The notes under the pieces were generated by a model. That model saw nothing but the letters and a program-made list of their open reading frames with translations, was not told where the DNA came from and did no database searches. A stretch of 63,582 bases of DNA, the filler included, from Kipferlia bialata (taxonomy: Eukaryota): NCBI GenBank assembly GCA_003568945.1. It is 6 parts of 6 records of this genome, joined end to end, with 100 filler letters (N's around TTAATTAATTAA, not from the genome) between each part and the next. Parts side by side here need not be neighbours in the genome. Positions count along the whole stretch, not along the records: positions 1 to 14,496 come from BDIP01000810.1; 5 more parts are not named here. One strand, 5' to 3'. Below, one piece after another: positions 1-60,116 of this stretch (position 1 is its first letter; each line of letters starts with the position of its first letter). A program made the position numbers and the translations under genes.

Positions 1-1403
1 TACATAGAGATGCATAGCCTTTGGCGAGGTCGGCAAGACCAGGAAGAAGAAGGTACATACATGTAGTAATATATATATATGTATATATATATGTATATAT
101 TTTTATATAGATTTATATATAGATAGTATTAATGATAATTATTACCCACTTACTAATACTCCAGGAGGCCAGTGTCCTAGGTGGTTATTCTATATTCCAT
201 TATAATACAGTATTTGTAGAAATACTTATATACATATGTATATATATACTTATACATTTCCTGATGCCAGGAGGCCAGTGCCCTGGGTGCCAATGACCCC
301 CACATCCTGGACTACTACCAGAGGTACTGTATTCCTATATATATATATATATATTAATTCATATACTAATGTATTAATATGTATATATTGAGGGGTACTT
401 GACTATGGGATAGACACGCACATCCTGGACTACTACCAGAGGTACTTATATATGCATATATATATATATATATAATCTCATGAATTGTGTATATAAGTAT
501 ATATATTATTACCCCCACATCCTGGACTACTACCAGAGGTACTGAGATACACATGTATATGATGAGTGTATGTATGTATTTCTAAATTCACTGTGGGCTA
601 GATTCCCACATCTAGGACTACTACCAGAGGTACAGTGATATATATATAATCATATATATATATAATCATATGAATTGTGTAAATAACTATATATATATTA
701 TTACCACCACATCCTGGACTACTACCAGAGGTGCTTTGATGTATACTTATGTCTTTCGTATATATGTATACTAATGTATATACATATATAATATTTGAAT
801 TATGTGTTGTTATAGATGCATATTGAGGGGTACTATTGGATATACCCCCTCATCATGTTCCAGTTTTAGAGCTACCCTTATCACGCCTCTCTCTCTCTAT
901 TTATGATCGCTTTTACTATTGTACATACAGTATGTCTTTCTCTCTGATTTCAGACCCACAGTGTATACAGTCATGTATATATGTGTGTATGAATATATAC
1001 TGTATCTATGTGGATGTATGTCTTACTCCCAGGTCCACCCCCGAGACCGTCTCCTTCACTGTCAAGCTGGCACCTGGGGATCTCGACAGACTCAAGGTGG
1101 GTATATATATATACCTATATATACATATCTATCTATAATACATATATATATATATATATGTATATATCTACGTATGGAGTGATATAGATACCTGGGGATC
1201 TGGACAGACTCACGGTGGGTATATACAAAATGTATGGAGTGATAGACTCAAGGTGTGTATTTATGTTTATGGAGGGATTCTTCTCTTCTTTAGAGATGGT
1301 GACATGAGGGATTTTGAGTAGAATCTGTGGTTATGTCGATATAGTCATGTATATGTTACATGAGATCTGCTTATCCACAGGCTCTGCCATGAGATGTACT
1401 GAT

Positions 1404-1438
<35 letters not shown>

Positions 1439-2050
1439 CCATCAGCTGTACTTATCCCTAGGCCCTGCCAGGTGGTGTCGAGAAGGCCTTCAAGCTGACT
1501 GGATCAGTGCCCATCTCCAACATGTAAGTTGGCACAAGTACATACATAGCACTCTTTTTTATATGTTTAATCTGTGTACATAATTGATTAATTATTGTAC
1601 GTGCCCATCTCCAACATGTTCGTGGACACAAGTACATACCACTCTATGTCATCTCATCATGGTGGATCAATACATATCTGTCGTCGCGTTTCTTCTGTGT
1701 GTTGTGTTGTCTATGATAAATCACTGAAATGTACATATACATATATGTATGCATGCATGTCTTTCAAACCCCAGGTACCTCTTTGACTTTGTTGTATTCT
1801 GTAATTACGTGTATACCTCATTATTATTATTCACCCCCAGGTACCTCTTTGACGAGAGGGGCAGACTGCAGCTAGTATGTATTGCTCCTCCCTATTGTAT
1901 AGTGATGTGATTGTACATTATGTCAATGTATATATTCTATTGCCCCACCCCCAGGTACCTCTTTGACGAGAGGGGCAGACTGCAGCTCTTCCACACACCA
2001 GGGGCCATCATTGACAGATTCTTCAGGTATTTGCATGTATATACATGCAT

Positions 2051-2095
<45 letters not shown>

Positions 2096-2618
2096 AGTAT
2101 ATGCGTGTGTGTGTGAATAAGTATATATATGTATATAACCATGGGCCATCATGACATATTCTTCAGGTGCTATGTGTATATATATGTTGTTTCAATTGTG
2201 TTTTCAAGTTGGATGGGTTATTAATGGACTGTGTTAGGTACAGTGGATGTCTAGTCTTATATGCCTATATACACCCAGTGTCAGGACGCTCTATCTATGA
2301 CATATAAATTTGCATATATATGAGTGTTTGGGTTAGTATCTTATCATGTCTGACCCCCAGGGTCAGGAGGAGAGGCTACGAGGAGAGGAAGAGAGGACAG
2401 CTCATTGGCCTGGTGAGTACTATATAGGGAATGTGACCCTAAACACTCATAAAGAGTGTATATATTTATATTATATGTATCTGAGTGTTTTATCATCCTG
2501 GTGAGTTTGACTGTCCTACTTGGCTATCTACTATGATCCAGGTATTTGTATACATCTCTCCCATCCTGACCCCAGGTGAGGACTGACCCATATTGTACAT
2601 ATGTAGTATATACATGTC

Positions 2619-2653
<35 letters not shown>

Positions 2654-5600
2654 TCTGACCCCAGGTGAGGAAGGCAGCAGAGAGCAGGGCCAAGGAGAGG
2701 TTCATCAGAGAGGTGGGTGTAGAATAATGTATCGGATTAGGAACTAATTTTGTCTTATATAGTATTGTATCCTGACCCCCAGATCATTGACCAGACCCTG
2801 CATGTCATAAGTAAATATATATAAGACACATTGATATATTGTGTATTACTCCTGACCTATAGATCATTGACCAGACCCTGCACGTGATGAGGAGACCCGA
2901 GGCTGACATCACCTCAGACCTCTGGGACAGGGGGTATGCAGTGCACCAGGTACTCTCTCTATCTCTATCGATTTCTCTCTCTCTCTCTCTCTATGTATAT
3001 ATATATGTTACTATATGTATGTATACATATGGATGTGTATCCGACCTGGGGGACAGGGGGTATGCAGTGCACCAGGTACAGTATGTATATATATTTGTAT
3101 GTATGTGTGGATATTAGCCGTCATTAAATGGTATTGCCTTTGAAATTTTGAATCTATATCTATATATATACATGTATATGTATCCCCATTCACCCCTCTG
3201 ACCCCTCAGGACACTGCCTCCGAGCTTCTGGGCACCGAGCACAAGGTATGCTGGGAGTGGTGTATAGACATACATGTAGATACTATATATATAAACCCTT
3301 TGTATTACTGTAAGTTACTATATATATATACTACATTTTTACACATATACATGTATACATGTCCTTACAGCAGGTTGCCTCTGACTCTGTTGGCGATGAG
3401 GAGGCAGATGGCACCAGAGAATACACATATATACATATATACATTCACTCTATATATATGTATATACGTATACCCCTTATGTTGACAGGTTGCCTCTGAC
3501 TCTGTGGGTGATGAGGAGGCTGATGGCACAAGGGTGCACAAGATACTCAAGAGAGTACCTGAGGCAGCTGTGCGGTCACAGGGTTAGTATCAGTATATAT
3601 ACAGATAGTATGCATACAGTGAGTATAGTATATGATATATATTTGTATTGTATATATATATATATGTAGGAGTGTGTACTCAAGAGAGCACCTGAGGCAG
3701 CAGTCAGATCCCAGGGTGAGTTGTATATGTATATATATATATGCTAGCTTATCTATTGTCTTATGCAGCTACGAGTACCTCCTCAAGATATATAGTTAAA
3801 TATACATAAGAGCATTTCATGTATGTATATATACATGTGTAGTCCCACCCCCAGGCGACGAGTACCTGCGCAAGATATATATATATATATATATATATAG
3901 TAATATATAACTGTATACCTCTTCTAACTAACCCATGCTACGAGTACCTGCTCAAGATATATAGTAGAATATATATAGTAACTACCTATGGGAGTGGTTT
4001 AAGCATTGTGTCGCATATATATATATATGCATGTGTATGTATTATTGTTCCCACCCCCAGGCTACGAGTACCTGCTCAAGATGCCTGATGAATATGCATA
4101 GTTTAGATTATTTACTAGTATATAATGCAACTATATTCCTCTTACTAACTAGCATATGGTACTAATATATATACCTCTTACTAACCCAGGCTACGAGTAC
4201 CTGCTCAAGATGCCTGTCCGGTCATTCACAACTGAGAAGGCAGAGAAGCTGGCGGAGGAGGTCAGGTACTCTATCACGTGCATATATAGTATATGTCACG
4301 CAAGACTATTCAACAGCACTTGTGTACTCTTTTACGTATATATTATGTCTCTCTATACTCACCTCTAACCTCCCTATGCAGGTCGAGGCTAAATGACAGT
4401 ATTTCTAGTATTCATGTGTACTCTCTATTTACTTCTTACGTCTCTATATACTCTATCTGTATATCACCTCTACCCCCCTATCCTAGTTTCTAACCCCCCT
4501 AGGCAGGTCGAGGCTGAGCTGGAGTGGCTCAAGAAGAGGACCACGGAGGAGGTATGGGTTATGTATCAATATGTCCATGATATATATATATATATATATA
4601 TATGTATGTGATATATATATATATATATATTGGAGTGGCTCAAGAAGAGGACCACGGAGGAGGTACTATTTACATAGAAATACGTTTCTATACATATATG
4701 CCTTGATGCGGCAAGTATATCAATTGTATTTATGAATATATGTACCCTATATTAATGTACCCTCACTCTAGATGTGGCTGTGGGACCTTGCCAAGCTGGA
4801 GCTGGGTCTGGAGGCCATAGACCACGACACCTACAAGGAGGTCAAGATCAAGGTGTGTGAAGGGCAATATGATATTACTAATATCACAGTAGCCTTTATT
4901 TAATCGATATAGTATTTGTATCAATATGTTTGAATGCCATTCTCTATCCAACCAACTAGGACGAGGTCCTTGAGCCACATTTCTATATTCTGAACTGAAA
5001 TATATATGCCTATATATGTGTACACTTCTCTGTCCTTACCCCAGGACGAGGCCGTTGAGCTCAGGGAGCAGACTGTCCGTGCAGAGCTGATGAGGTATAT
5101 ATATATATACATATATTTACTCCATACATATGGATGTAGTGTTAATGCGTGGATTCGCGCATAGTAGTATTTGTTCCGTATATCGAGATTCATTGTCTCT
5201 AAGCCCTCAGGGAGAGAGAGAGAGGCCCTGATGAGGCAGCAGCCATCAGAGAGAGAGAGAGGGTCATTGGACAGACACCAGAGAACATCGGGAAGGTTTG
5301 TTTAGTAGCAGTCGACATATCAATTGTATTTTCATACACCCTTTATGTTGCCACTCTCCTTTAACGTCAGGTAGGTCTCTGTATACATTAGGGTTCTCTC
5401 TCTCCTCATATACTCCTCACCTTACGTCAGGTTTGTCGATTGTCTATCCAATTAGGCAAACTGTATTGGAGCCTCCTCTCTTTGTATGTTGTTTTCTCTC
5501 TCAATTAACGTCAGGGCGGTCTCTTCACCGTCCCAGATGCCATCACACCCACTGTCAAGAGAGAAGTGAAGGTGGAGGTCAAGAAGGAGCCTGCCAAGAA

Positions 5601-6396
5601 GGCTACCAAGAAGGGAGCCAAGGTAAATATATATATATATATAATATATACATATATATATATATGTAATATCCATTATGACACACCCAATGTTAAGAGG
5701 GAGGTGAAGAAGGCAGCCAAGAAGGGAGCCAAGGTGGGTATATTACACTCAATATTATACTTTCTATTCATTGTTGAATATATACATATACAAGGATACG
5801 GCGGCCAAGAAGGGAGCTAAGGTATCATCCAAGAGAATATGTATTCACTGATGTAACTAAACATATTTTCAAATCTGAAATATTCACAAGAGATCTCTGA
5901 TATACTTAGTATGACTCCTCAATGTATACTTGCACCCAGGCACCCCCCTCCAAGAGAGTTCCCTCTCCTTCCCCATCCCCTGAGGCATCACCCTCTGAAG
6001 GCACGGAATATATATACATATAGATGTATTCATAGGAATAGAGGGGAGGAGAGATGTATGTGTACAAATGTACGGAAAGAGAGGAAGAGGGGACCTTCTA
6101 GTAGCCAATGTGTGTTGTACAACTGAACTCAGTCCAGTCTCTGTTGGATCTTTGATATACGTGTAATTTATATATTTACAGAGCCCCCCTCATTCCAGCC
6201 GTTGACTCTGTGTGGGCCGACATCCTGACCCCTGTCAAGCAGCCCAGAGCAAAGCCTAGGGGGAAGGTATGTACATAGTATATAGTATATAGTATATAGT
6301 ATATAGTATATAGTATATATATAATAGTGTGTTTATAGTATAGTATGTATTATATAGAATATAGCAAAGCCTAGGGGGAAAGTATATATGTATACA

Positions 6397-6434
<38 letters not shown>

Positions 6435-9400
6435 TAGTGTCTCACCCTCAGACGACCATCCCAGTAAAGAAGGCACCTGCCAAGAAGGCTCCTGCCCCCA
6501 AGAAGGTATTATATATATATGTATGTATAAATATGTGTATGCTGAGAAGATATAGTAGATTTTTCAGTACTAATAATGTTTATACATACATAGCTCCTGC
6601 GCCCAAGAAGGTATGTTATGCCTATTAACTCATTGATACATATGCTGATGCCAGGGCCTGCAAATACCCGCATATATATGTGTGTATATGAACATACTCA
6701 TATACATACCCCCCCCTACCCCAGGCCCCTGCCAATACCTATGTAATGTATATAATATATACATGTATATATGTATATGTATACTGTCTCATCCTAGGCC
6801 CCTGCCAAGAGGAAGCCTGTCCAGCCAGAGCCTGAGCCAGAGAGTGAGGAGGAGGTACTCATATACAGTATATATTATTGTACTAGTATATATTCATGTA
6901 GAGTATTGTGAAGTAAAACTCTTAGAGAGTGAGGAGGAGGTACTCCCATATATGCATTTGTCTACAGATACTATATATAATATATAATATATATATACTT
7001 TATTACACTTCAGTCTAACCCCAGTCCATGAGGTACTCCCATATGCAGTGTACTATATATACTACATATAATATATACTATATACTATATATACTATATA
7101 CTATACTACACTTCTCTCTCACCCCAGTCCATGAGTGACTCATTCGTTATACATATATATGTGATGTGAATGGTATATTTTATACATATTCATTTAGTGT
7201 CTAATACATATACTATACATATACATGTAAGTGTCTCACCCCAGTCCATGAGTGACTACGGCAGTGCCCAGGAGGACACACCCATCCAGGTATCTATATA
7301 TATATATATGCATGTATATATATATATATGCATGTATGGATATGTGTGTGTGTGAATGTGTGTTCATGTATACAGTGCCCAGGAGGACACGCCCATCCAG
7401 GTATGTATATATTTATATATATATCTTATACCTTATACCTTGTATATATAATACATTATATACCCTCACCCCCAGCCCCGCAAGAGACCCATCAGGGAGA
7501 GAGGGGAGGAGGAGAGTGAGAGTGAGGCCGAGTCCGACTCTGACGAGGACGGATACGTGCCACAGCCCAGACAGCCCAGGCCCTCGAGGTAAGTAACCTG
7601 TATACTATATATCATATTGTATCCACTAAGGTTATATATTCATGTATATATACATGTATATATATATATTGGTGCCCCAGCCCAGACAGCCCAGGCCATC
7701 GAGGTACACTCTTATTGCTATTGATAGAATGTGTATTCTATGTAACCTATTGTACACGTCATGTTAATTTCTGGTACCCAACCCCATGCAGGCCCTTCTT
7801 AGACCCTCGAGGTACACTATTTATAGGACTTACAGCATATGTATACTTGTATTCAATATCCTCTTACCCACCTCAGGAGAGGTGCCCGTGTCTCCTACAT
7901 ATATACTACCATAATGTATATATACATTATAAATATCTTATACTGTATATATATATATATATATATATATCGTCTTGCCCTAGTATATTAGCTAACACCA
8001 GGAGAGGTGCCCGTGTCCCCTACATTATATAGTATAGTACTCCATAGGCATTTACTATGTGGAGTATATTGTATATGTGTATACTATATATGATAGGATA
8101 TTAATACCAGGAGAGGTGCCCGTGTCTCCTACAAGCCTGTGCAGGATGACAGTGAGACAGAGGACAGTGTGAGTGAGAGTGAGAGTGAGGTTGAGAGCGA
8201 GAGCGAGGTATGGACAGTAATATATCCATATATATGTGTTTTCTCTCTCACCCTAGGAGAGTGGGGGCTAGGTTTGTGATAAACTTGTATGAGAAATTAG
8301 TATATACAGAGTGTTTTCTGATAGACATGCAATGTACCTGTATGTATATCCATGCTCTCTCTCACTCCAGGAGAGTGGTGGCTATGAGCCCACCCCAGAG
8401 GTCAAGAAGAAGGTGGTGAAGAGGGCCAAGCCTGCTCCTAAGGTAGGGTCTTTCATACTACTATTGACGACATCACAATTAGCTTTGCTACTCATTATTT
8501 CTACTTATCTCAGGCCAAGGCCGCTCCCAAGCCTGCTCCCAAGGCCGCTGCCAAGGTGTGTGGTCCCGGAATATGCTACTACCTATATATACTCTGACGC
8601 TCTGCATTCTCTTCTATATATACTAAGCACACCCTCTTCATTCCCTAACCCAGCCTACATATACACACTATACATACTCTTCCTTCTAACCCCCAGCCTA
8701 CCAAGGCCAAGGTGACCAGGCGTGCCCCTCCCCCTCCCCCCGAGGACTCAGAGTCCGAGGAGACACTGGACCTGGTGGTGCGTTTCTAGTATGTACTTAT
8801 TGATAAATGATATTCACTATCCATATCTATATATATGTATATAGTTACTTTGTCCCAGTACGAGTCCGAGGAGACACTGGATCTGGTGGTGCGTTATATA
8901 TATGGATATATATAGTGTTTTCCGAATAGGATCTACACATTTGCAGATGTATTTACCGTATGTTTCACTCTAGATTACTTGCTATCTCTGGTATTGTCCT
9001 TATCACCACTCACCCCCTGGGAGTCTGAAGATGATGTAATTGATAGTTAAGCATGTACATTATATCGTGGCTCATCTCTGTCTTGTTTAGTACTTTTAAC
9101 CCCTAGGAGTCTAGAAGAGATAGCAAAGTATTGTTATATATACTATATCTATGTCTTAATGATACTTACCCCTAGGAGTCCGATGATGAGGATGCATTCG
9201 TATCCCCTGTGGTGCAGAAGAAGGTAGGGATAGGGTGTTTTGAAGTATGAATAGTGTTCCATACAGTATATGTCACAATGACCCATATACCAACATACTC
9301 ATATAACAACAAGAACCCTCTGTTTCCAATCACCCTCATCCTAGGCCCCTGCCAAGAGGTCTCTGGTGAGGAGGAAGGCACCTGTCAAGGTAAGGATATA

Positions 9401-10662
9401 CTATTGATGATGCATGGTATATCCATATAAGCGACTAGGTTATGATGGATTATGAGGAGGAAGGCCCCTGTCATTATATATATCTCTGTCTCGCTCTCTC
9501 TCTCGCTCTATTTACCTATGTATATGTATACAGCTATATTAACCACAGGCCAAGGCCCCAGTGAAGGCCAAGGTATCATACTTCTCTCTCTCCCTCTCTG
9601 CCTATGTATCTTTATAGCTATATATATACTCAACCATACATACTAACCCCACAGGCCAAGGCCCCAGTCAAGGCCAAGCCAGCCCCACAGGTATTATATA
9701 CCTATATACTTGTATGTAACCTACTGTATTGGTGCAGTAGACTGATACTGATACTCTGTAGTTCCCTCACCCCTAGTCGTGCTAAGTATATTTATATGGA
9801 TAGTATGTTCTAATATATGATATATATATATATATATCATATGTATAGTTCCCTCATCCCTAGGCACGCAAGTATATATTATATATATCTATATATATAA
9901 ATATACCTATTCTCACCCCCCAGGCCAAGGGTGCCGCCAAGGCAAGAGCAGCCCCCAAGCCCAAGGTATATATACATACCCCAAGCTATACACCCCTTTT
10001 CAATAATGATACCGTGACATATGTATGTTGATATATGTAGTGTTCCCAAGCCCAAGCCCAAGGTATACATCATGCATATGTACAATATCATGTGTGTATA
10101 GATGTTCTTTCTATTGAGTATACAGCTGTGAATTCATATTTATGGAGTGTAACATGTACATAGTGGTATATATATCATTCTCACACCCAGGATGATGAGT
10201 ACACTGACTCTGACTCGGATGTCGACATGGGCAATGAGCTCCCAAGCGCCAAGGTATACGTTATTGATTAGTGGTTATATATGTGAAAATTCAAATATGT
10301 GTGTATGTGTGCGTGTATACATATGGTATAGAGTTGTGTGTATGTATGTATGTATTCGTTGTTGTCTAACCCCAAGCTCACCATCCGCAACAGACCCTCC
10401 AGAGGCAGGAGGGTGCCCGTGAGGTATGGGTGTGTATGTATTCATAGATGTAGTGATGTATATATGTATATCTATGATTGTATATATTGATATGTGCACT
10501 GACAGTACAGTCTGCCGATGAATACACGGTTATGTCTTCATATATCCAATGAATATGTATATATATGCGTCTAATTCCAGATACACTGTGTCAGACAGCG
10601 AGAGTGAGAGTGAGAGTGAGAGTGGGTACGGAGGGGACGACAGCTTTGAGTACTCTGGATAG
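1..10662 (+). CDS. TOP2: DNA topoisomerase II, 3' part (end of the cleavage core plus a long K/A/P-rich and acidic C-terminal tail), many short exons, 5'-partial
   Basis: Spliced exons read ...[12 protein letters not shown]..., [109 protein letters not shown]. These match the eukaryotic TOP2 motifs N-M-x-L-F-D, R-x-x-x-Y-x-x-R-K, Y-D/E-Y-L-L-x-M and W-x-x-D-L. The last exon 10581-10662 ends in TAG. Confidence 0.9.
298..732 (+). repeat. Exon-end echo array: live exon end plus four intronic copies of CACATCCTGGACTACTACCAGAG|GT, each with a donor GT
   Basis: Unit seen at about 301-325 (live), 419-444, 517-540, 608-631 and 708-732, separated by TA-rich spacers. Confidence 0.9.
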
Positions 10663-11009: not shown

Positions 11010-14000
11010 TCACTCCGCCTCCTCGGCCTTAGGCTCAGGGGCCCACAGACCCTTCTTCTTCAGCCTGACAATAAGGGTGTAGAGAGAGAGAGAGAGAGAG
11101 AAAGAGAGTCTGTACTGTGGCATATACACTCTATCCTATACCTGTAGAGAATGCCCTTGGCAGCCACTGGGAGCACCTTATATATATATATAAATACCTT
11201 CATATATATATTCCATACATATACCATATACATATATATATATACATATATATATACTACCTGTACAGAATGCCCTTGGCAGCCACTGGCAGCACAACAA
11301 GTCTGGACAGATCCTCATCAGAGACTGGGGGTGAGACAAAGATATAGATATAGAATCATTGACATATAAGGTATATACATATATACATACAACCAGTGTG
11401 GACAGATCCTCATCAGAGACTGGGGGTGAGCAGCATTCTAAGGAACATATTAATATACAATATACAATAAATATACTGTATATATATATACACTAACGAG
11501 TCTGGACAAATCCTCATCAGAAACTGACGATGAGCATAAGAAGAACATATTATGTACATGAATATACTGCATAGTATACACTATACATACCCTTGAGCTC
11601 CACTCCGTCTGCCTTTGCGTTCTCTCTGATCATGGTGCACAGTCTGTCCACAATGAAGGGGACACAGGCCTCCTCAGTACCTAGAGTGAGAGGAGACGAA
11701 TATTATGTATATACAGAGTGTAATTATATATATATAACTATATATACTACAATTATATGATGTAGGGGACACAGGCATCCTCAGTGCCCGGAGTGAGACA
11801 TATATGATATGTGTATACAACGATCACATATATATACGTAAAGAGAAACGTGATCCTAATACACATGTGCGTGCATGTACTACTAACGAGTGTACCTGGC
11901 AGTCTATAGAAATATATAAATGGGTGTAGGTAATAATGTGAGTAAGATAGTATAGGACAACATATCAGATAGATATAGAGACCGATACACTACCTGGCAG
12001 CTCATCATCTGATCCAATGCGGCAGTATCCGACAATCTGGCGCCTGAAGGATAAGATACGATAAGATACGACAAGATACGATAAAATACGATAAGATACG
12101 ATAAGACTCCATAAGCATGGCAGTTCATCTATAGACAATAATAGAAGAGACAAATCCTTCTCATCATTCCAAAAGACAGGGCTGTGAGACATTGAGTATA
12201 TACGCTAAGGTGAGTGTGTCTTACCTCAGTGCATTGAGAGCTGCCATGACGTCTGGTCCCTCACTGCACTCAAAGTGGGCAGGGCAGAGACGCTGGGGGG
12301 CAATGACCTTGATGTCAGGGATGATACAATGTCTGCCATACATTTATGTATGACACTGATGTCGGGGTTAATGACAAGTGGTTACAATAACACATATACA
12401 ACTGTAATACTAAAATAGTAATTATACATGTCATTATCACATATATTCCATCAGATATAGGTTTTGAAACACCCTTATACCATATGTATTGATATTCACA
12501 CGAGGTGGAAAGGACCTGGGGTTCTGGGAATGTATGGATACAGTATAGGGGTAACAATTGTTATCTATACACATATACATACACCCCATCTCCACCCTGG
12601 AGAGGCTATCCATCCAGGCAGTATACATGCATCAATATCCATATATATCCATATATATAGACATAGATACCCTACCTCCACCCTGGAGAGACTGTCCATC
12701 CAGGCAGCGGGGTCAAACTGGGTGGGGGAGGAGCTGGGGGTCAGCTATGGTACAAGACGTTACAATAATAATGAATACAAGTAAACATATAAATAACCAG
12801 TTGTGTTGTGGGTGGGGGAGGAGCTGGGGGTCAGTACAATATAGGTAAAGCATAAAGATATACTCAATTACTACAAAAGATTTGAATGGATATATGAACT
12901 CACAGTACAACTGGGTAGCTGTCGAGGCTGTTGAGGATGAAATTTACCCCTCTTGCAATAAATATCAATGTATTACATTCTCTACAAGAAATACAGAATG
13001 TAATATATACCACGTACAGTACAACTGGGTAGCTGTCGAGGCTCTTGAGCACAGTGCCTGTGGCATCGCCAGTGAACATGGTCATGCTGGGGTGAGATAG
13101 AATCATGCATATCCATATGAATATATATATGTGTGTGTGTGTGTGTGGTTAGTACTTAGACATTAGTGAACATGGTCATGCTGGGGTGAGATGCTTGCAC
13201 GTATACATATACACAGCATACACGTATTGAACAGAGTGATTAATAATTACATGGTCATGCTGAGGTGCCAACTGCATGTATACATGTATGGAGAAATGGG
13301 GGCTACTCCATTCAGTGGATACATGCACGTATAGAGTAGGAGTGGATATCATATAAAGATGATACCTGCTCCTGTGCAGCCAGCAGCATATACAAGTAAA
13401 AATACAAAATATAGTATATAAATACATACATAATACATATGACATGTACAGAGGTATGGTTGATACCTGGACGGTTACTGTAAATACTTGATTGTGTATA
13501 ATTCAATATAGTACACTTGATACCTGCTCCTGTGCAGCCAGCAGCAGTGGTGGTAGGCGTGGCCGTGCATGTGCAGACACTGAGGGTGAGAACATGATAC
13601 AGGAATATTGATATATGTTATACACTCTACTATGTATATAAATATATACATGGTTCTTGGCATGCATGTGCAGACACTGAGGGGTTGACAATGTTTCAAG
13701 CCAATAGTATGTACTGTAGATAACAAGAGTTACACAAACTCAAAATAAAGAATGTACTACTACAAATATACACAACTCCATGTCTATTCTATGATTATGC
13801 AACTACACACATATACACATACATACATCCATATCCAGTAAGGGGTTCTCCTCTGAGTCCACAGACACACGTATACAAATATACATATATCCATATATAT
13901 GTTCATACAACACTGTATGTACCATACATATATATATATATATGCATATACCTCCATATCCAGGAGTGGGTTCTCCTCTGAGTCCACAGACACATATACG

Positions 14001-14011
14001 TACATATATAT

Positions 14012-14044
<33 letters not shown>

Positions 14045-14439
14045 CATATATGTATGTACCTCCATATCCAGGAGTGGGTACTCCTCTGAGTCCACAGACA
14101 CAGTCTCACTATCGGCAGCACTCCTAGGGGGTGAGAGACACGAATATATCAGAGCATGAGAGAGAGAGAGAGAGAGAGAGAGTAGAATCAGCAGCACTCC
14201 TAGGGGGTGAGAGACACGTATATATACAATATAAATAATATAAATAATACATATAATATATATATCAGAGCATATCAGAGAGAGAGAGAGAGAGAGTAGT
14301 ATCAGCATGTACATACACATATATTACCAAGACATAAACCACCAAGGGAAACAGACGGTGACTGCACGGAAAGAGAGACAGGGTAGACAAAGAGAGAGAG
14401 AGTGCGTGTGTATACCTGCACCGGTCTGCGTCGATGTCC

Positions 14440-14496: not shown

Positions 14497-14596
14497 NNNN
14501 NNNNNNNNNNNNNNNNNNNNNNNNNNNNNNNNNNNNNNNNTTAATTAATTAANNNNNNNNNNNNNNNNNNNNNNNNNNNNNNNNNNNNNNNNNNNN
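14497..14596. other. Artificial contig linker (N44-TTAATTAATTAA-N44)
   Basis: Exactly 100 bp, carries stops in all six frames, and recurs identically five times in the window. Confidence 0.97.
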
Positions 14597-14797
14597 TTGG
14601 TGTTCATGGGGGATCTTCTGCCCCCCCCCCCCCCTTCCCCCCTCTCTCGCGTATTCCTGTCTCTCTCTGTCTCACTAAATGCATCATTCTCACCCCAGCC
14701 ACACATATCTCAATTCAATATTCAATAAGGACATTCTCTCTCTATCCTCACCTCTTCCACCCCCCATCCCTTTCTCTCTCCCCCCCTCCCACCCCAG

Positions 14798-24600: not shown

Positions 24601-27207
24601 CATATGTACTCTTGATGAGACACAGCAGACTGAGAGGTGTGTAGTGACTGTAGTATTATTCTTGACTATAGTATAGGTTTAGTTCTTATGTATATACCTC
24701 CCCCTCATCTGACCCCCAGCTTCATGAACAGCATGTACTCCAGAGGTAGACAGAGGGAGGCCTCTGCCATGTGCCAGCCTAGTGACACATGTACACCTGC
24801 GACACCTTCTACACTAGAGGATACTAGTGCACAAGGGGTTGATGATGCGGCGATTGTGGTGCACACGAGACAGCTCACCTCCCTGCTGAGGTCATGGTAC
24901 CCGACTCTCTTCCCAGCCCCCACCCCCGAGCCAGGCATTGCCCCCGTTCACTCCATGCAGCGCCTTCCCTCCATAGCGGGGCTGTCCCTACTCGATCGGC
25001 GTGTATCGTGTAGGGTGGAGGACCTTGTCACCACTTCCTACACCTCTGACGCAGACACTGAGCCACGCAGGGTGGACCCCCCCTCCCCTCCCCCTGCCCA
25101 CATACCCCCAGGGGTGGATGTCAGTGTGCCAGTCAACTACGCGTCGGAGGTGTGTGTAATAATGTGCAGTGTACTATTGGTATTCGTGGATCAAAGACCT
25201 GATTGATTGACCATACTCTCTGTACACTGACCCCAGGAAGAGATCAGTGACATGAGGCAGGCAGAGATTGAGTTCTTCCCCCTGATGGTCTACACAAAGC
25301 TCGACATATGTGGCTTTACCAAGTAAGTACACACTATATATACTTATAGTATGTATGTATACATATATTATCTATACTGACACTGATGCTGATTGAGTTC
25401 TTCCCCCTGATGGAGTATTGCAAGCTGGACATATGTGGGTTCACAAAGTGAGTGTTGTAGAGTATTTAGTAGAGTACATATGTATATCTATCTATATATA
25501 TATATATATTCCAAGCTCGACATCTGTGGGTTCACAAAGTGAGTGAGGGTTTGATTGCAGTGGTACTCATTGCCGAGTAGAGACGATACCACCGGTCACG
25601 TACTGATGTCTGTGTCTGTGACTCTCTCTCTACATGTATACCAACCCCCAGGTACTGCACCGACCATGGGTCAGAGGTTGTCCCCTTGCTCAACCTCCTC
25701 TTCACAGCACTGGATGAGGTACTGGCATAGTATCACTATTAGATGGTTCTATTTCATTTACTGAGGTACTGGTTATCAGTATCAGTATCCATTATTATAT
25801 AATATCTCTACTATCGGATACTCATACTATTGCTTTATCTATTTAGTGATACTATTACTCTCTCTATGTACACTGATGCTATTACTGTATCTGTTACTGA
25901 TCCTTATACCTAGGTGCTGGCCAAGTACTCTGCCAGTGGCATCATCAAGGTCAAGACAATAGGGGACGCATACGAGGTATGTATGCAAACACATATGTAA
26001 AACTGTGTAAAACGTTCATCATGGGACATGCTCTTCTTCAACCCACCGCTGTGTATTGTGTCCTGTGACTCTCTGTCACAGAGAGTCTCTGTGTCGACCT
26101 ATACATGTATATGTTTGTTGATATATATTGATACACACACCCTCACCCCAGGCCATGCTTCCCTTCAGCCCCACCCACCTCAAGTGTGCATCGGTCTCAT
26201 CCATCATAGAGGGCGTGGCTGCAATGGCTAAGGTGTGTGTATGCATGCATGATATACAGTGCGTATACATACACCTCTCCCTCTCCCTCCCCCTCAGGCT
26301 GCCAGTGAGTTCCAGAGCGTCGCACTCCGTATATTCTCCAGCCTACAGGTCGACCTATCTGTCAGGTACGAGACCAGTATTACATACATGTATGTAGATT
26401 ATGTGACCATAAGCACCCCATATGCTATACACTATGTACTCTCTGTGCTTTTACCCCAGGTGTGGAGTGGGAATGGGCCCTGCCTTTGCAGCAGTACTCG
26501 GGAGGTGAGTCTTATACGGACCAGCGTGTAATTGATCCTCTCTGAACTACACCATTGTATGTCCGATTGCAGCATCCATATTACGTAACATACATTCGGA
26601 TAAGTGGCCAACCGTGTCTCCTATGACATCGGTATGTCTTTAGTGATAGTAATAACGTCATACGTCACATATGTCTAACCCCCAGGATCCGTGTCTCCTA
26701 TGACGTTGTGGGAAGAGCCCCCTCTACAGCCAGGACCATGGAGGGACTCTCTCCTCTAGGGTACGGGCTACTATAGATACACTAGTGGTACTTACCCACT
26801 CATTTCAACCCCCCTGACCCCAAAGATGTGTCACTGTCTCCCTGCCTGTCTATGAACTGCTGTGCACTGACCCCACCCTCCACTTTGGCAGCTATGTCAC
26901 GCCCATGACCAATACCCAGAACATAGAGGACAGGGCTAGCAGTGCCCTACTTGATACTGCATCTGAGATGGTGAGGGAGAGAGTGGCTGCACAGAGGCAA
27001 GGAGACTCTGACTTTGAAGCGACTCTACTGCTGAACCATGCAGTGCTGAGGTCTGTGAGTGGGTCAAATGGGGGCACACCACCCACAGTGACAGAGTGGT
27101 TCGAGAGAGACCACCTCACGGCCCTTCCCTTACTGCACATGCACGAGAGAGAGGGTAGTATGGACAAGGGGACAGTGGGGGTGGTCCTGGAGGGAGTGTC
27201 TCTGTAG
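14798..27207 (+). CDS. Membrane-bound class III nucleotide cyclase (probable adenylyl cyclase), TM-C1-linker-TM-C2 architecture, 5'-partial
   Basis: Hydrophobic exons at 14798-15470. C1 exons: GVEK|VKGIEG and GIACGSVTAGVLGTCELMFDVFGDTVNTAAR|LM (16951-17041). Second hydrophobic block at about 21760-23690. C2 exons: KLDICGFTK (25237-25322), IKVKTIGDAYE, VR|CGVGMGPAFAAVLG and YDVVG. TAG at 27205-27207. That this is a single gene is inferred from an unbroken + strand exon chain. Confidence 0.8.
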
Positions 27208-27508: not shown

Positions 27509-28652
27509 CTACACGATGTCCTTATTGAACCGTAGCACGGTCCCGGGAGCACCCTCTGTCTCAACCACCACTGTACATGCATCAGAGAACACGTACTTCT
27601 GCTGGGGTACGTGGTATATCAGCTCCTCCACCTTACCCCACTGGTGCCACTGGCATGTGTGTGTATCGTATGCAGCTACCCTGTATGCATAGTCTATCCC
27701 AGTCCTAGTCAGCTCAGACACAACGTAGAACAGGAGGAGGTGCCGACCCATGGGGTGGAGGGGGGTGTTCTGGTGTTATATACAGATATGGACCCACAGA
27801 TTCAAAGATTTACACGGCATATAGTATGAAAATGAATGTATATATATAGATGCACTCACAAGGTTGTCATGGCCAAAGTTCTTGGTGAACTCTGACTCCA
27901 CCACCCACCCTGCCCTGGGTGTGTATGTGTACATACAGTCATAGACTAGGCCATATGCCTTGTCACCCATCTGCACTAGGGTCATACGGTTTAGACACTC
28001 ATGGGTGCTGTGGGGTAGAAGTGTCCACCCATCGCTAGGGGTGGATGGGTCCAAAGACCACATGTCAGAGGGGCTGGGGGTGAGGGAGAGGGGGGGGGGG
28101 CTGTCGGGTAAGAGAGAGACGTGCAGTATACTGCAGTCCATATCACGTCCGCACACAGATGTATACCCACTGTATACCCATTGTGTACACTCACCTAGTG
28201 ACCAATACCAGCCGTCCCTCCATGTATAGTAGCACCTGATACCCTGACAGATTGGGCACACTGTTCCACCCTGACAGATTGGGCACACTGTTCCACCCAG
28301 TGGCACCGATCTCCTCAACATCCCAGGTGTGTGTCTGTATGTCCAGGGAGACTAGGGTGCCACTCTCTCCCTCAGGCACCAGGAAGTATACCCTGCCCCC
28401 TGCCCTCACCCCTGGGTACACTGTCTCAGTGTCTAGTAAGGTATGGCCAGGGGTGCCTGGTGCAGGTGTCACGTCCACTCTCTCCAGCCCCCCCTCCGGC
28501 TGTAGGGTCACTAGGGTGATCACTGACCCACCCTCAGTCTGACACCTCTCTAGGATACGGCCATCCCCAAGCTGTATAAGGGTGGAACGACCCCCGACAC
28601 TTCCAGGGTAGGGATCGGTGGGGGTGGAAGTGTAGTACACTGGCTCAGACAT
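27509..28652 (-). CDS. Hypothetical kelch/beta-propeller-like protein, 3 exons
   Basis: ATG at 28652 (MSEPVYY...). Contains GGRVYFL...SLDIQTHTW, MWSLDP...GWTLLP and VAAYDTHTCQWHQWG; stop at 27509. Has an in-frame 27-nt tandem duplication (GWNSVPNLS x2) near 28243-28298. Confidence 0.55.
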
Positions 28653-56500: not shown

Positions 56501-56623
56501 AGAACAGACAACAAAACCTTAACATAGAAAAACGAGTAAGGTCATACAGCACCAAATATGAAGGAAAAACGTACTGGGAATCCTCCTTCCAGCGGCGTTC
56601 ACGAAAAACTGGTCGTCGGACAT
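53558..56623 (-). CDS. citF-citD-citE: Fused bacterial-type citrate lyase: alpha (CitF, CoA-transferase) + gamma/ACP-like (CitD) + beta (CitE, citryl-CoA lyase); 927 aa, 3 exons
   Basis: Exons 56623-56575, 56441-56021 and 55871-53558 total 2784 nt in frame, with GT-AG introns. CitF motifs: NAAGRRIP, ISWHHHLRNGD, RSHGGRVRAI, FSFQAGAGG, GALEVDVNFNIN, GGSQDTAAGA, WRDGTVIDVV. CitD-like: KSDVEITL...DAGASDWVIAARVEAAV. CitE: RRSLMYIPG, DLEDAV, VRIN, PKIES, GLEDY, IHPSQI, GRKMIDAPV. Confidence 0.93.
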
Positions 56624-57024: not shown

Positions 57025-59698
57025 TTAGGCCTTCCATGTCCTGATCCACTCATTCATGGCCTGGAGCTGGAACTCCCTGGAGGTGAGAAGAGGATAAGTA
57101 ATGAGAAAGCGGTGAGGACAAGGGAGTGCGGGCTCGATAACCGCACCTGATAGTGGCCAGAGGGGCGGGGTCGTCGAGCTTGGTGGCATACATGTCAGCA
57201 CAGTGGGAGGTGCCGTGCATGACGTATCTGGGGGAGGCGGGGTTGTCGAACATGTTACCGAGTGCGTGCCAGGGGTCAACGTCTCCTGAGAGTCAGCACA
57301 TAGCACAAGTATAAGGAATGACGGAGAGGTCGGTACAAAAGCACCAGTACTCACCGTTGGCGTAGAACACGTTGCTGATCCTCTGCTTCTCGGCACCATA
57401 CAGCACGTTGGTCTGGGATGAGAGGGTGGTAATGTAACTATGCGTGAGTTTGATATGGACGTGTGTGCCGCACCTGGGCTGTCTGCATGTCGGCCTCCTC
57501 TGCCTCGATACCGAACACGTCAGAGCACCAGGAGTGGAAGTAGTCAACGTCTACCAGCTCAGACACAACATCAGAGGTGGTGCCGGTCTGCCAGTAGGAG
57601 AACTGGGGTGAGGAAGGGGGGGTGAATGGACACTAAACCATCATATTGACATCCATACACAATTCATTGCAGCACTACCAGTTTCATATGTGTATGTAGG
57701 TATATAACTATGCACATACCTCAGTGCAGCACTGCCAGGTCCAGGCCCTCTCAGATGCTGTCTCAGCGGTGGGGTCGAGGTCGAGCATGGAGTCGATGGT
57801 GGACTGGTAGGAGGCATCCACACACCCGGGGTAGTACTGGCGTCAGATACAGTGATAGACACGCATAGAGTAGGTACAGAATATGCAGCAGTCCCTAGTG
57901 GTGACTGACCTCAGCAGCCACGAGCTCAGCGATGTTCTCGAGGGTGGAGGAGTTGGGTCCGTCCACAATGTCGGTGCACAGAGCCTCAATGTCGCCTGGG
58001 TCAGAGAGAGAGTAGTGGAAGATGAGATGGTAAGAGAATGGCTGATCAAAGAGACAGAGAGACCCACCTGGCTTGGCGTACTGGATGGTTCCTGCAATGG
58101 GGTCGTCCAGGAGAGACCTAACGGTGAGGGTATGGAGGGATAATAGAAATATGGAAGACATGCCATTATATGATACATCACTAGTGGACCCACATGAAGT
58201 TAGCGACGTCGTTGACATCGGAGTAGTCGATGTCGTCACAGAGGTTGAACATGCGGAAGAGCTCATCGCGGCCAGACTTGGTGGCAATGAGAGTCTCGGC
58301 CCTGGGAGTCAGAGAGGGGACAGGGGGGGGGGGATAACTATATAAGAGTGGTGGCACACCTGGTGACGGCGTCAGCCACAGCCTGGGTGCACTGGTTACC
58401 GTAGGAGGAGGTGCCGAGGCTAGCCTGCACCACATCGAAGTACTGGTAGTAATCCACCTGAGGGGTGAGGGAAGTGGAACTGAGAGTACGCACACTTACA
58501 CTCACACACTAGGCCACACATAATAGCAGCATAAACACACACACACCTCGGCCTTGACAGGGGCAGAGGAAGCAAGGGCACCGGCAATCAGGTGGGGGTA
58601 CCTGGAGTGAAACAGCAGATGGAATCAGACACACATCACATCCACTATCATCAGCCTTGGCACCTGAGCCTCATCCAGGCAGCCAGGTTGCCGGAGTAGC
58701 TGCCGCCAATGGCGATCCAGGGGGCTCCCTCAACATCGTACATACCGGCGTCGGTGAAGTAGGAGATGAACCTGGGGTGGGAGGGCGAGAGAGCAGAGGG
58801 CTCTGTCAACGATATATATATGTACCAGGTAGTAGTGCTAGGTTGTAGCTGTTGTTGTCATGTACCTGGCGGTATCGGCCAGGGCCTGCTCAGAGGAGAG
58901 GTAGTGCATGTTCTCGGTGGCATAGTCCTCCACGGGGATGGACTCGCCGTAGTACCTGGAGGGTCAGACACTCACGGAGACGGACTAATTTGGGGGTGGT
59001 AGGGGGGGGTGGGAGGTCATTGCAAGTATTCTCTGAGCCTGACAGATACATGCACCCAGATGTCTCCCTACCTGTGCTCGAGGTCAACGATCAGACCTCC
59101 CAGCATCTTGGCAAAGGTGTTGACGTAGAAGTAGCCTCCCACGCACTTGGGGGACTCGGGACCCTCACCTCCTAGGAACAGAAGCACTGGGCCGCCTGGG
59201 TATGAGAGGAGATAACCACATGCCATGGGAAGAGATAATAAGCACAGAAGACAGGGAGAGACATGAATTGGAGTAAGATATGGATTCCGTGATCATGCGT
59301 ACCGGGTGTGTAGTAGGTGTCGTTGATGTAAAACTTCTGGCTCCAGTAGCTGATGTCCACCTTGTCGAAGTGGTCAAGGAGCTGGGATCAGAGAGAAGGT
59401 CGGTCAACACTATGAGAAGATACATACTCGTTGGCACCGGTTGCACTGGTTTTAAAGAACTTCCACACGCACAATTATCCATGAACTATAATCACTAGCT
59501 GTATGTCCATCCATAGGGCGTATCAATTGCATTATGGAATACATGTCAAGATATGTCAAACACTCCTCTCACCTGCTCGTCATACCAGTTAGCCTGGGCC
59601 TCGCCGAGCTCAGCCTCAGAGGCAACCTCCTTGTAGTAGTTGCGGGGGGAACACAGCACTACTGCCAGGCAGCAAGCGATGATCAGAGCAGTTCTCAT
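57025..59698 (-). CDS. Serine peptidase family S28 (prolylcarboxypeptidase/PRSS16-like) with a signal peptide
   Basis: MRTALIIACCLAVVLCS..., Q|LLDHF, GGPVLLFLGGEG, LEHR|YYGES, YLSSEQALAD, WIAIGGSYSGNLAAWMRLR|YPHLIAGALASSAPV, DPWH and HGTSHCADM; TAA at 57027-57025. Confidence 0.92.
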
Positions 59699-59997: not shown

Positions 59998-60097
59998 NNN
60001 NNNNNNNNNNNNNNNNNNNNNNNNNNNNNNNNNNNNNNNNNTTAATTAATTAANNNNNNNNNNNNNNNNNNNNNNNNNNNNNNNNNNNNNNNNNNNN
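59998..60097. other. Artificial contig linker (N44-TTAATTAATTAA-N44), flanked by poly-C and poly-G contig ends
   Basis: Same 100-bp construct. Confidence 0.97.
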
Positions 60098-60116
60098 GGG
60101 ACAGGGTGGGGGTGGT

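What the first reader, a model, noticed from the sequence alone, without database searches (positions are those of the whole stretch)
3374..3717. Echoes differ from the live exon mainly by synonymous substitutions
Seen: echo 3374-3419 versus exon 3489-3582 has five differences, all silent (GTG>GTT, GGT>GGC, GCT>GCA, ACA>ACC, AGG>AGA). The downstream echo 3678-3717 has GCT>GCA, GTG>GTC, CGG>AGA and TCA>TCC, with one replacement (GTA>GCA). Neutrally decaying intronic copies should gather mostly non-synonymous changes. Inference: the echoes diverged while under protein-level selection. They may be former live exon ends displaced by an incoming version from a divergent allele (homologous on the exon side, illegitimate in the intron microsatellite), or they may still be translated in some isoforms. 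Either would be an unusual exon-turnover system.
Basis: partly seen in the sequence, partly recalled or inferred. Interest (0 to 1): 0.85.

Follow-up and report, generated by a model that had tools for sequence, protein, structure and literature searches.

The report
Retired allele exon ends in introns
In a free-living flagellate, about four in ten exons examined have a half-exon copy with its splice site in the next intron, and these copies differ from the working exon mostly by silent changes, so they are likely once-working exon ends from diverged gene copies left behind by imprecise recombination, which would be a fossil record of genetic exchange.

Summary
Observation confirmed and general. 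Both echoes exist as described. With the live exon they lie on one unbranched DNA contig, and the one mRNA contig uses only the live exon. The organism is Kipferlia bialata (100% protein match). Of 142 curated exons, 56 carry 110 junction-anchored echoes: 5' halves only upstream, 3' halves only downstream. Echo-versus-live dN/dS is 0.18 (bootstrap 0.13-0.26). The fair null, a dead tandem copy beside a selected exon, gave 0.54-0.57 in the same pipeline. Echo-versus-echo dN/dS is 0.28. Echo splice signals differ from the live ones at about 45% of positions yet score as well. Replacement changes and AG/GT loss look like slight neutral decay (about 0.04-0.05 per site). The echoes therefore likely diverged while working on other chromosome copies, and were then stranded by half-homologous, half-illegitimate recombination. 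This is inferred: no second allele or isolate was found. Translation and haplotype merging are disfavoured. This scan noted exon-junction echoes before in sea urchin, where the silent bias matched the null; here it does not.

The parts
3372..3419 (+). 5' echo: AG (3372-3373) plus the first 46 nt of the exon, 5 silent differences, no donor
3420..3488 (+). filler: TA-rich intron 3' end ending in the live acceptor
   Evidence: sequence
3489..3582 (+). live exon (94 nt, phase 0 to 1), present in the RNA contig without other letters
   Evidence: table 8 (record 9, 3487-3581)
3583..3676 (+). filler: live donor and TA-rich intron 5' end
3677..3717 (+). 3' echo: last 39 nt of the exon plus a GT donor of another good type (GTGAG vs live GTTAG), 5 silent and 1 replacement change
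3768..4087 (+). stack of four 5' echoes (3768-3789, 3855-3876, 3937-3958, 4061-4087) of the next exon 4190-4265
8..10662 (+). host gene, C-terminal part of a type II DNA topoisomerase (weak Pfam PF00521 match, E=0.077, below cut-off; name otherwise recalled from motifs); 33 exons, 18 with echoes, 29 echoes
   Evidence: exon chain 1033-5622 fits 7 of 7 RNA offsets checked
11010..14123 (-). gene of untested identity, 9 exons, 6 with echoes, 12 echoes
25391..25538 (+). two strongly diverged 3' echoes of exon 25237-25322 (about 6 silent + 4 replacement; 4 silent + 0)
29552..37859 (+). prenyltransferase gene (PF00432, E=7.8e-10); 18 exons, 14 with echoes, 36 echoes
33866..34387 (+). stack of five 3' echoes of exon 33732-33796 with a shared breakpoint; two silent sites show all four allele combinations (N gap inside the stack)

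Best explanation
The echoes are non-coding half-exons with one splice site, and they are likely retired but once-working exon-intron junctions from diverged alleles, probably stranded beside the working junction when recombination between two alleles was homologous at one end and illegitimate at the other. Shown: each unit spans exactly one junction; divergence is silent-biased far beyond the dead-copy expectation; splice signals are different but equally strong; later decay is small and neutral. Inferred, step 1: a half-exon cannot be under coding selection next to the live exon on the same molecule, so the selected divergence arose on separate chromosome copies. Step 2: allelic introns are nearly unalignable, so exons are the only homology islands. 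A broken end invades the other allele inside an exon, copies across the splice site and about 80 nt of flank, and is joined to the other end without annealing. Step 3: only products that keep one complete exon survive. Step 4: stacks with a shared breakpoint grow by unequal exchange between an echo and another allele's live exon end. Candidate enzymes (not tested): Dmc1 for invasion, polymerase theta for joining. Implied silent divergence between the exchanged copies: about 0.13-0.17 per site.
For: Geometry: 111 of 116 hits are junction-anchored, none in crossed orientation; detection null 0.3%; inverted hits 3 of 269, non-adjacent introns 13 of 2191. Silent bias: dN/dS 0.18, exon bootstrap 0.13-0.26, simulated dead-copy null 0.54-0.57, lowest of 120 replicates 0.39; unique changes 120 silent vs 88 replacement, P=2e-9 against 0.5; third-position excess for every base, in 5' and 3' echoes, away from N gaps, and in the exons with outside support. 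Echo vs neighbouring echo: 41 silent vs 43 replacement, dN/dS 0.28, P=0.007 against 0.5. Splice strength: donors 1.67 vs live 2.0, acceptors 4.6 vs 3.8, full-decay null -0.7 and -2.8; 0 of 500 half-decay nulls reach the observed value; branch motif kept in 43 of 54 echoes, as another variant in 23 of 37 pairs. Later decay is neutral: mean BLOSUM -0.86 vs -0.56 for random changes, stop codons present, AT-ward, AG/GT kept in 99 of 109. Four-fold changes fit codon-bias equilibrium in both copies best (lnL -185.0 vs -189.0 to -200.8). Flanks are locus-homologous but far diverged. Repair genes: K. bialata entries for Spo11, Hop2, Mus81, Msh2 and PolQ, none for Ku70 (PMC8516963 supplement rows); fornicates lack Rad51A and have two Dmc1.
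Against: No second allele, paralog or isolate was found: no other-letter rows in 900-6200, only 37-43% relatives in metagenomes, no near-length protein relatives at E<=1e-25. Silent divergence is nearly uniform among echoes (negative binomial shape about 10; an exponential spread is 9 lnL units worse), unlike simple coalescent times. Flanks have diverged far more than silent sites (identity 0.62 vs 0.42 background at donor +3 to +6), which needs faster intron change. Echo length and filler length do not trade off (rho 0.09), so a fixed synthesis tract is not seen. pS of the 5' and 3' echoes of one exon is uncorrelated (rho 0.16). Sex has not been observed in metamonads (PMC8516963). Most gene models are my own.
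Confidence: 0.55

Rival explanations
1. Echoes are born as identical tandem copies of a junction from the sister chromatid; later, ordinary allelic conversion replaces the live exon end and its flank. Diverged alleles are still needed, only the order of events differs.
For: About a third to 40% of nearest echoes keep flank similarity above the 95th percentile of the null, and some units are near-perfect repeats. Changes shared by all echoes of a stack are almost all silent (13 vs 2).
Against: Private changes of single echoes are silent-biased too (39 vs 33, dN/dS 0.23). Echoes with similar and dissimilar flanks have similar silent bias. Replacement of the filler must itself end in poorly homologous intron.
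Confidence: 0.18
2. Plain tandem copies within one lineage are kept under indirect purifying selection, because they collapse onto or convert the live exon often enough that damaging changes in the echo are purged.
For: Would give uniform divergence and needs no sex. One stack of 22 shows four-gamete exchange.
Against: Replacement changes are no more conservative than random and include stops. Conversion would make splice signals identical to the live ones, not different and strong. By my rough estimate it needs very high diversity too.
Confidence: 0.12
3. The new junction is made by highly error-prone synthesis, and selection keeps only copies whose errors are silent and whose splice signals work.
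For: Explains uniform divergence, scrambled flanks and silent-biased echo-echo differences without sex. PolQ is present.
Against: Needs about 15% errors per base, far above polymerase rates as I recall them. Four-fold GC is not eroded under echoes (0.65 and 0.62 vs 0.61), and the four-fold matrix fits worse by 4-13 lnL units.
Confidence: 0.07
5. Echoes are translated in minor isoforms, for example an in-frame mini-exon 3670-3715 after an AG, or their splice sites work in nested splicing.
For: The mini-exon has the same phases as the live exon. Echo splice signals are strong.
Against: That AG has no pyrimidine tract or branch motif. The RNA contig is unbranched and uses live exons. 3' and 5' echoes do not co-occur in introns more than chance (P=0.59). 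Contigs drop rare isoforms, and the run's RNA status is a guess.
Confidence: 0.03
6. Assembly artefact from two merged haplotypes or strains.
For: The species is reported as probably diploid from k-mer peaks (PMC5874029). Some echoes flank N gaps. Run X1 may be the source of the window.
Against: One 921-nt contig covers 3011-3865 with no other letters or gaps, at depth 370 against 331-378 for its neighbours. Stacks hold up to five versions. dN/dS is 0.19 in introns without N.
Confidence: 0.01

Closest known systems
One-sided invasion / SDSA with non-homologous termination (Belmaaza and Chartrand 1994; Puchta 1998; seen as reference titles in PMC4888836 and PMC9299229 plus one passage; details recalled)
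   Same: One junction homologous, the other illegitimate; leaves a local duplication.
   Different: Described from break and gene-targeting assays. Here it would be a natural footprint at 39% of the exons examined, between diverged alleles and filtered by splicing.
Tandem genomic duplication and double-strand-break repair as routes of intron gain (PMC3443670, passages read)
   Same: Short direct duplications at exon-intron scale with filler DNA.
   Different: No new intron is made; the unit spans an existing junction and the two copies are diverged under selection, not identical at birth.
Junction-spanning tandem copies: human F7 intron 7 VNTR and sea urchin echoes (from earlier scan notes e1-7787398, e1-9861148; not checked)
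   Same: Same geometry: exon end plus splice site repeated into the adjacent intron.
Tandem exon duplication with mutually exclusive splicing (recalled)
   Same: Neighbouring copies diverge mainly at silent sites.
   Different: Copies here are half-exons with one splice site, never in crossed orientation, and absent from the mRNA contig.

Membership tests
Neutral junction-spanning tandem duplication | Direct, adjacent copy spanning one junction | tested here: met
   111 of 116 anchored, none crossed
Neutral junction-spanning tandem duplication | dN/dS at or above about 0.5 | tested here: not met
   0.18 vs simulated 0.54-0.57
Neutral junction-spanning tandem duplication | Intron part of the unit about as similar as the exon part; echo splice signal decays | tested here: not met
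Mutually exclusive duplicated exons | Each copy has both splice sites and an open frame | tested here: not met
Mutually exclusive duplicated exons | Both copies appear in mRNA | tested here: inconclusive
   only live exons in one RNA contig; contigs drop rare forms
Intron gain by tandem duplication | A new GT-AG intron between the duplicated segments | tested here: not met
   fillers are one-ended; exon chain is unchanged by echoes
One-sided invasion between alleles | Local direct duplication with one non-homologous junction | tested here: met
One-sided invasion between alleles | Copied part matches an identifiable donor allele | tested here: inconclusive
   no second allele or isolate found
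One-sided invasion between alleles | Microhomology or templated insertion at the illegitimate junction | not testable with these tools
   needs both parental haplotypes
One-sided invasion between alleles | Dependence on recombinase and end-joining enzymes | not testable with these tools
   gene presence only, from PMC8516963
Nested replacement of a whole exon in one event | 5' and 3' echoes complementary and equally diverged | tested here: inconclusive
   gaps -7 to 24 nt in 18 exons; spread tighter than three nulls (P<0.01) but not the strictest (P=0.08); pS uncorrelated

The most novel reading that the evidence does not exclude
Kipferlia runs a genome-wide exon-end turnover: exons are the only homology islands between hyperdiverse alleles, recombination routinely swaps in another allele's splice junction and archives the old one in the intron, so one genome holds a layered record of many past alleles and direct genomic evidence of sex or parasex in a metamonad.
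Probability: 0.4. Interest if true: 0.88.

Novelty: new variant of a known kind. Interest (0 to 1): 0.72.

Why it matters
Neither sex nor parasex has been seen directly in metamonads (PMC8516963). If echoes are stranded alleles, a single assembly gives many allele pairs and an estimate of silent diversity of about 0.13-0.17, and the claim can be tested with a second isolate. It would also give a route by which introns grow and splice junctions are replaced without changing the protein. It poses a sharp splicing question too: a reduced spliceosome (87 of 174 proteins, PMC6679479) passes over equally strong decoy sites about 110 nt from the real ones. Practically, echoes mislead gene finders: my own model called many as mini-exons.

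Tried and rejected
No whole genome was held, so tests are window-wide, not genome-wide. No RNA holder on record was listed; X2 is a guessed RNA run with a small share, laid. Reads were laid only on 900-6200. Protein searches: an exon of the host gene gave no hit; the PP2A exon found only the K. bialata protein among longer proteins and nothing at E<=1e-25 among near-length proteins. The metagenome scan gave 8 loci at 37-43% identity, not used. Rejected: base-composition or transition bias as the cause (four-fold ts/tv 22/55; per-base rates); flanks borrowed from other introns; whole-exon duplication followed by deletion (no crossed echoes); nested splicing; constant synthesis tract. Not shown: single-event nesting; same-exon co-occurrence, significant overall (P=0.001) but not within echo-rich genes (P=0.10); a clear rise of divergence with distance (pS 0.20, 0.24, 0.15, 0.22 for ranks 1-4). 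Literature: nine searches; no listing described these echoes. The library lacks most subscription papers.

Full report
1. Setting. A long exon at 49329-49688 (-) matches P0001 at 100% identity; its source names it Kipferlia bialata KIPB_003984. P0001 threads exactly onto 16 GT-AG exons. The species is a free-living fornicate with 124,912 annotated introns, reported as probably diploid from k-mer peaks (PMC5874029; I read passages and the overview section; those passages do not mention echoes and 'duplicat' occurs 0 times). The finding lies in the C-terminal part of a gene that reads as topoisomerase II (Pfam PF00521 E=0.077, below cut-off; otherwise recalled).

2. The observation. The 5' echo has 5 differences in 46 nt, all silent; the 3' echo has 5 silent changes and 1 replacement. 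One DNA contig of run X1, 921 nt, covers 3011-3865 with no other letters or gaps, at the depth of its neighbours; no other-letter rows were listed for 900-6200. X1 may be the source of the window, so this is not an independent sample. A 5175-nt contig of run X2 (RNA by guess) contains the live exon, and my exon chain reproduces all 7 record offsets checked, leaving no room for an echo between 1033 and 5622. Contigs drop rare isoforms.

3. Window-wide survey. I curated 142 exons in 12 gene pieces from a simple gene model and by eye; only the topoisomerase chain 1033-5622 and PP2A have outside support. Local alignment of each exon with its flanking introns gave 116 hits at a score reached by 0.3% of unrelated pairs. 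111 are anchored at a junction: 55 upstream hits at the exon 5' end, 56 downstream hits at the 3' end, none crossed. I dropped the 5 unanchored hits from all counts, and one probable chance hit (peptidase gene, no GT), leaving 110 echoes on 56 exons. Fillers have a median of 77 nt.

4. The right null. A dead copy beside a selected exon should show dN/dS near 0.5, because the live exon also drifts at silent sites. Simulating this through the same pipeline gave means of 0.54-0.57 and a minimum of 0.39 in 120 replicates; the observed value is 0.18 (141 silent, 89 replacement; exon bootstrap 0.13-0.26). Counting each change once gives 0.22, P=2e-9; without the focal exon 0.23, P=7e-8; with a fourfold transition weight 0.28, P=3e-5, although four-fold sites show no transition excess. 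Third positions carry 123 changes against 42 and 38, for every base; 5' echoes give 0.21, 3' echoes 0.17, introns without N 0.19, and the 17 echoes in exons with outside support 0.13. Four of 18 multi-change codons keep their amino acid.

5. Two clocks. Slow clock: replacement changes run at about 0.04 per site, are no more conservative than random, include stops and lean to A/T; AG/GT loss is 0.047 per site. This looks like neutral decay since retirement. Earlier clock: silent sites differ at 0.21 and keep the coding GC bias (echo base G/C in 50 of 77 four-fold changes vs 27 of 73 replacement changes, P=0.001). Donors differ at 2.7 of 6 and acceptors at 5.7 of 12 positions yet score as well as the live ones; 0 of 500 half-decay nulls reach this. 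Small indels inflate the acceptor mismatch count, so the donor and branch-motif results carry more weight. Flanks match their own locus better than other introns but are close to background beyond 12 nt. Neighbouring echoes, both dead now, also differ with dN/dS 0.28.

6. Mechanism. A half-exon with one splice site cannot be coding beside the live exon, and whole-exon duplication with later deletion should leave crossed echoes, which are absent. The selected divergence therefore likely arose on separate chromosome copies that were later joined out of register. I infer invasion inside an exon, copying across the junction into about 80 nt of flank, and end joining; long or well-matched overlaps would anneal cleanly and leave no trace, which could explain short echoes and the narrow divergence range (not tested). 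Shared breakpoints in stacks fit unequal exchange between an echo and another allele's exon end. The listed repair genes fit: no Ku70, PolQ present, Spo11, Hop2 and Mus81 present (PMC8516963 passages and Supplementary Data 2 rows; its file 1 could not be read), and Dmc1 stabilises mismatched joints (PMC6719624, abstract only). Whether the echo is the old resident or the incoming piece is open.

7. Against this reading. No donor allele was found. Silent divergence is more uniform than simple coalescent times predict. Intron flanks diverged several times more than silent sites. Tract length is not constant. The 5' and 3' echoes of an exon nearly tile it in 18 cases, but the strictest null gives P=0.08 and their divergences are uncorrelated, so a single nested event at the focal exon is not shown. 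One window may not represent the genome.

8. Comparison and novelty. Junction-spanning repeats, intron gain by tandem duplication (PMC3443670, passages) and one-sided invasion (PMC4888836 and PMC9299229, passages and reference titles) are known. Nine searches (listings only unless stated) returned nothing on echoes in Kipferlia or on junction copies with this signature; PMC6679479 passages cover its spliceosome only. Earlier scan notes report sea urchin echoes whose silent share matched the null (unchecked). I file this as a new variant of a known kind.

9. Verdict. The feature is real, widespread in the window and not explained by neutral tandem copies. An origin from diverged alleles has about 0.73 in total (0.55 one-sided joining, 0.18 copy first and replace later). 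Interest 0.72.

Noticed in passing
window 14497-14599, 29088-29186, 43650-43749, 50864-50963, 59999-60098: The window is several scaffolds joined by N runs with a six-frame stop linker; neighbouring pieces are not known to be adjacent.
   Followed up: no
window 51873-53288 and 57512-59698: Two genes (weak TsaD match; peptidase S28) have 0 echoes in 9 and 13 exons, while the prenyltransferase gene has 14 of 18 exons with echoes; echo density is patchy.
   Followed up: partly
   Followed up: partly
window 10377, 15739, 22114, 30938, 52154: Several exons appear to use AAG acceptors.
   Followed up: no
window 53558-55957 (-) and 55828-56541 (-): Long, nearly intron-free frames that read like a bacterial-type citrate lyase fusion (name recalled from the translation, not tested).
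   Followed up: no
window 30250-30479 and 33963-34289: Echoes on both sides of N gaps may be one copy assembled twice; results hold without them.
   Followed up: yes
window 385-427 and 820-857: Diverged direct repeat inside the echo-rich intron 324-1032 that matches no curated exon; possibly relics of a lost exon.
   Followed up: no
window 28242-28290: Short exact tandem repeat inside a predicted minus-strand frame.
   Followed up: no
window-wide: Echoes rarely exceed 60% of the exon (8 of 68 nearest ungapped echoes; longest 57 nt) and exons over 100 nt rarely have one (6 of 29). Unexplained; fits failure to anneal short, mismatched overlaps.
   Followed up: partly
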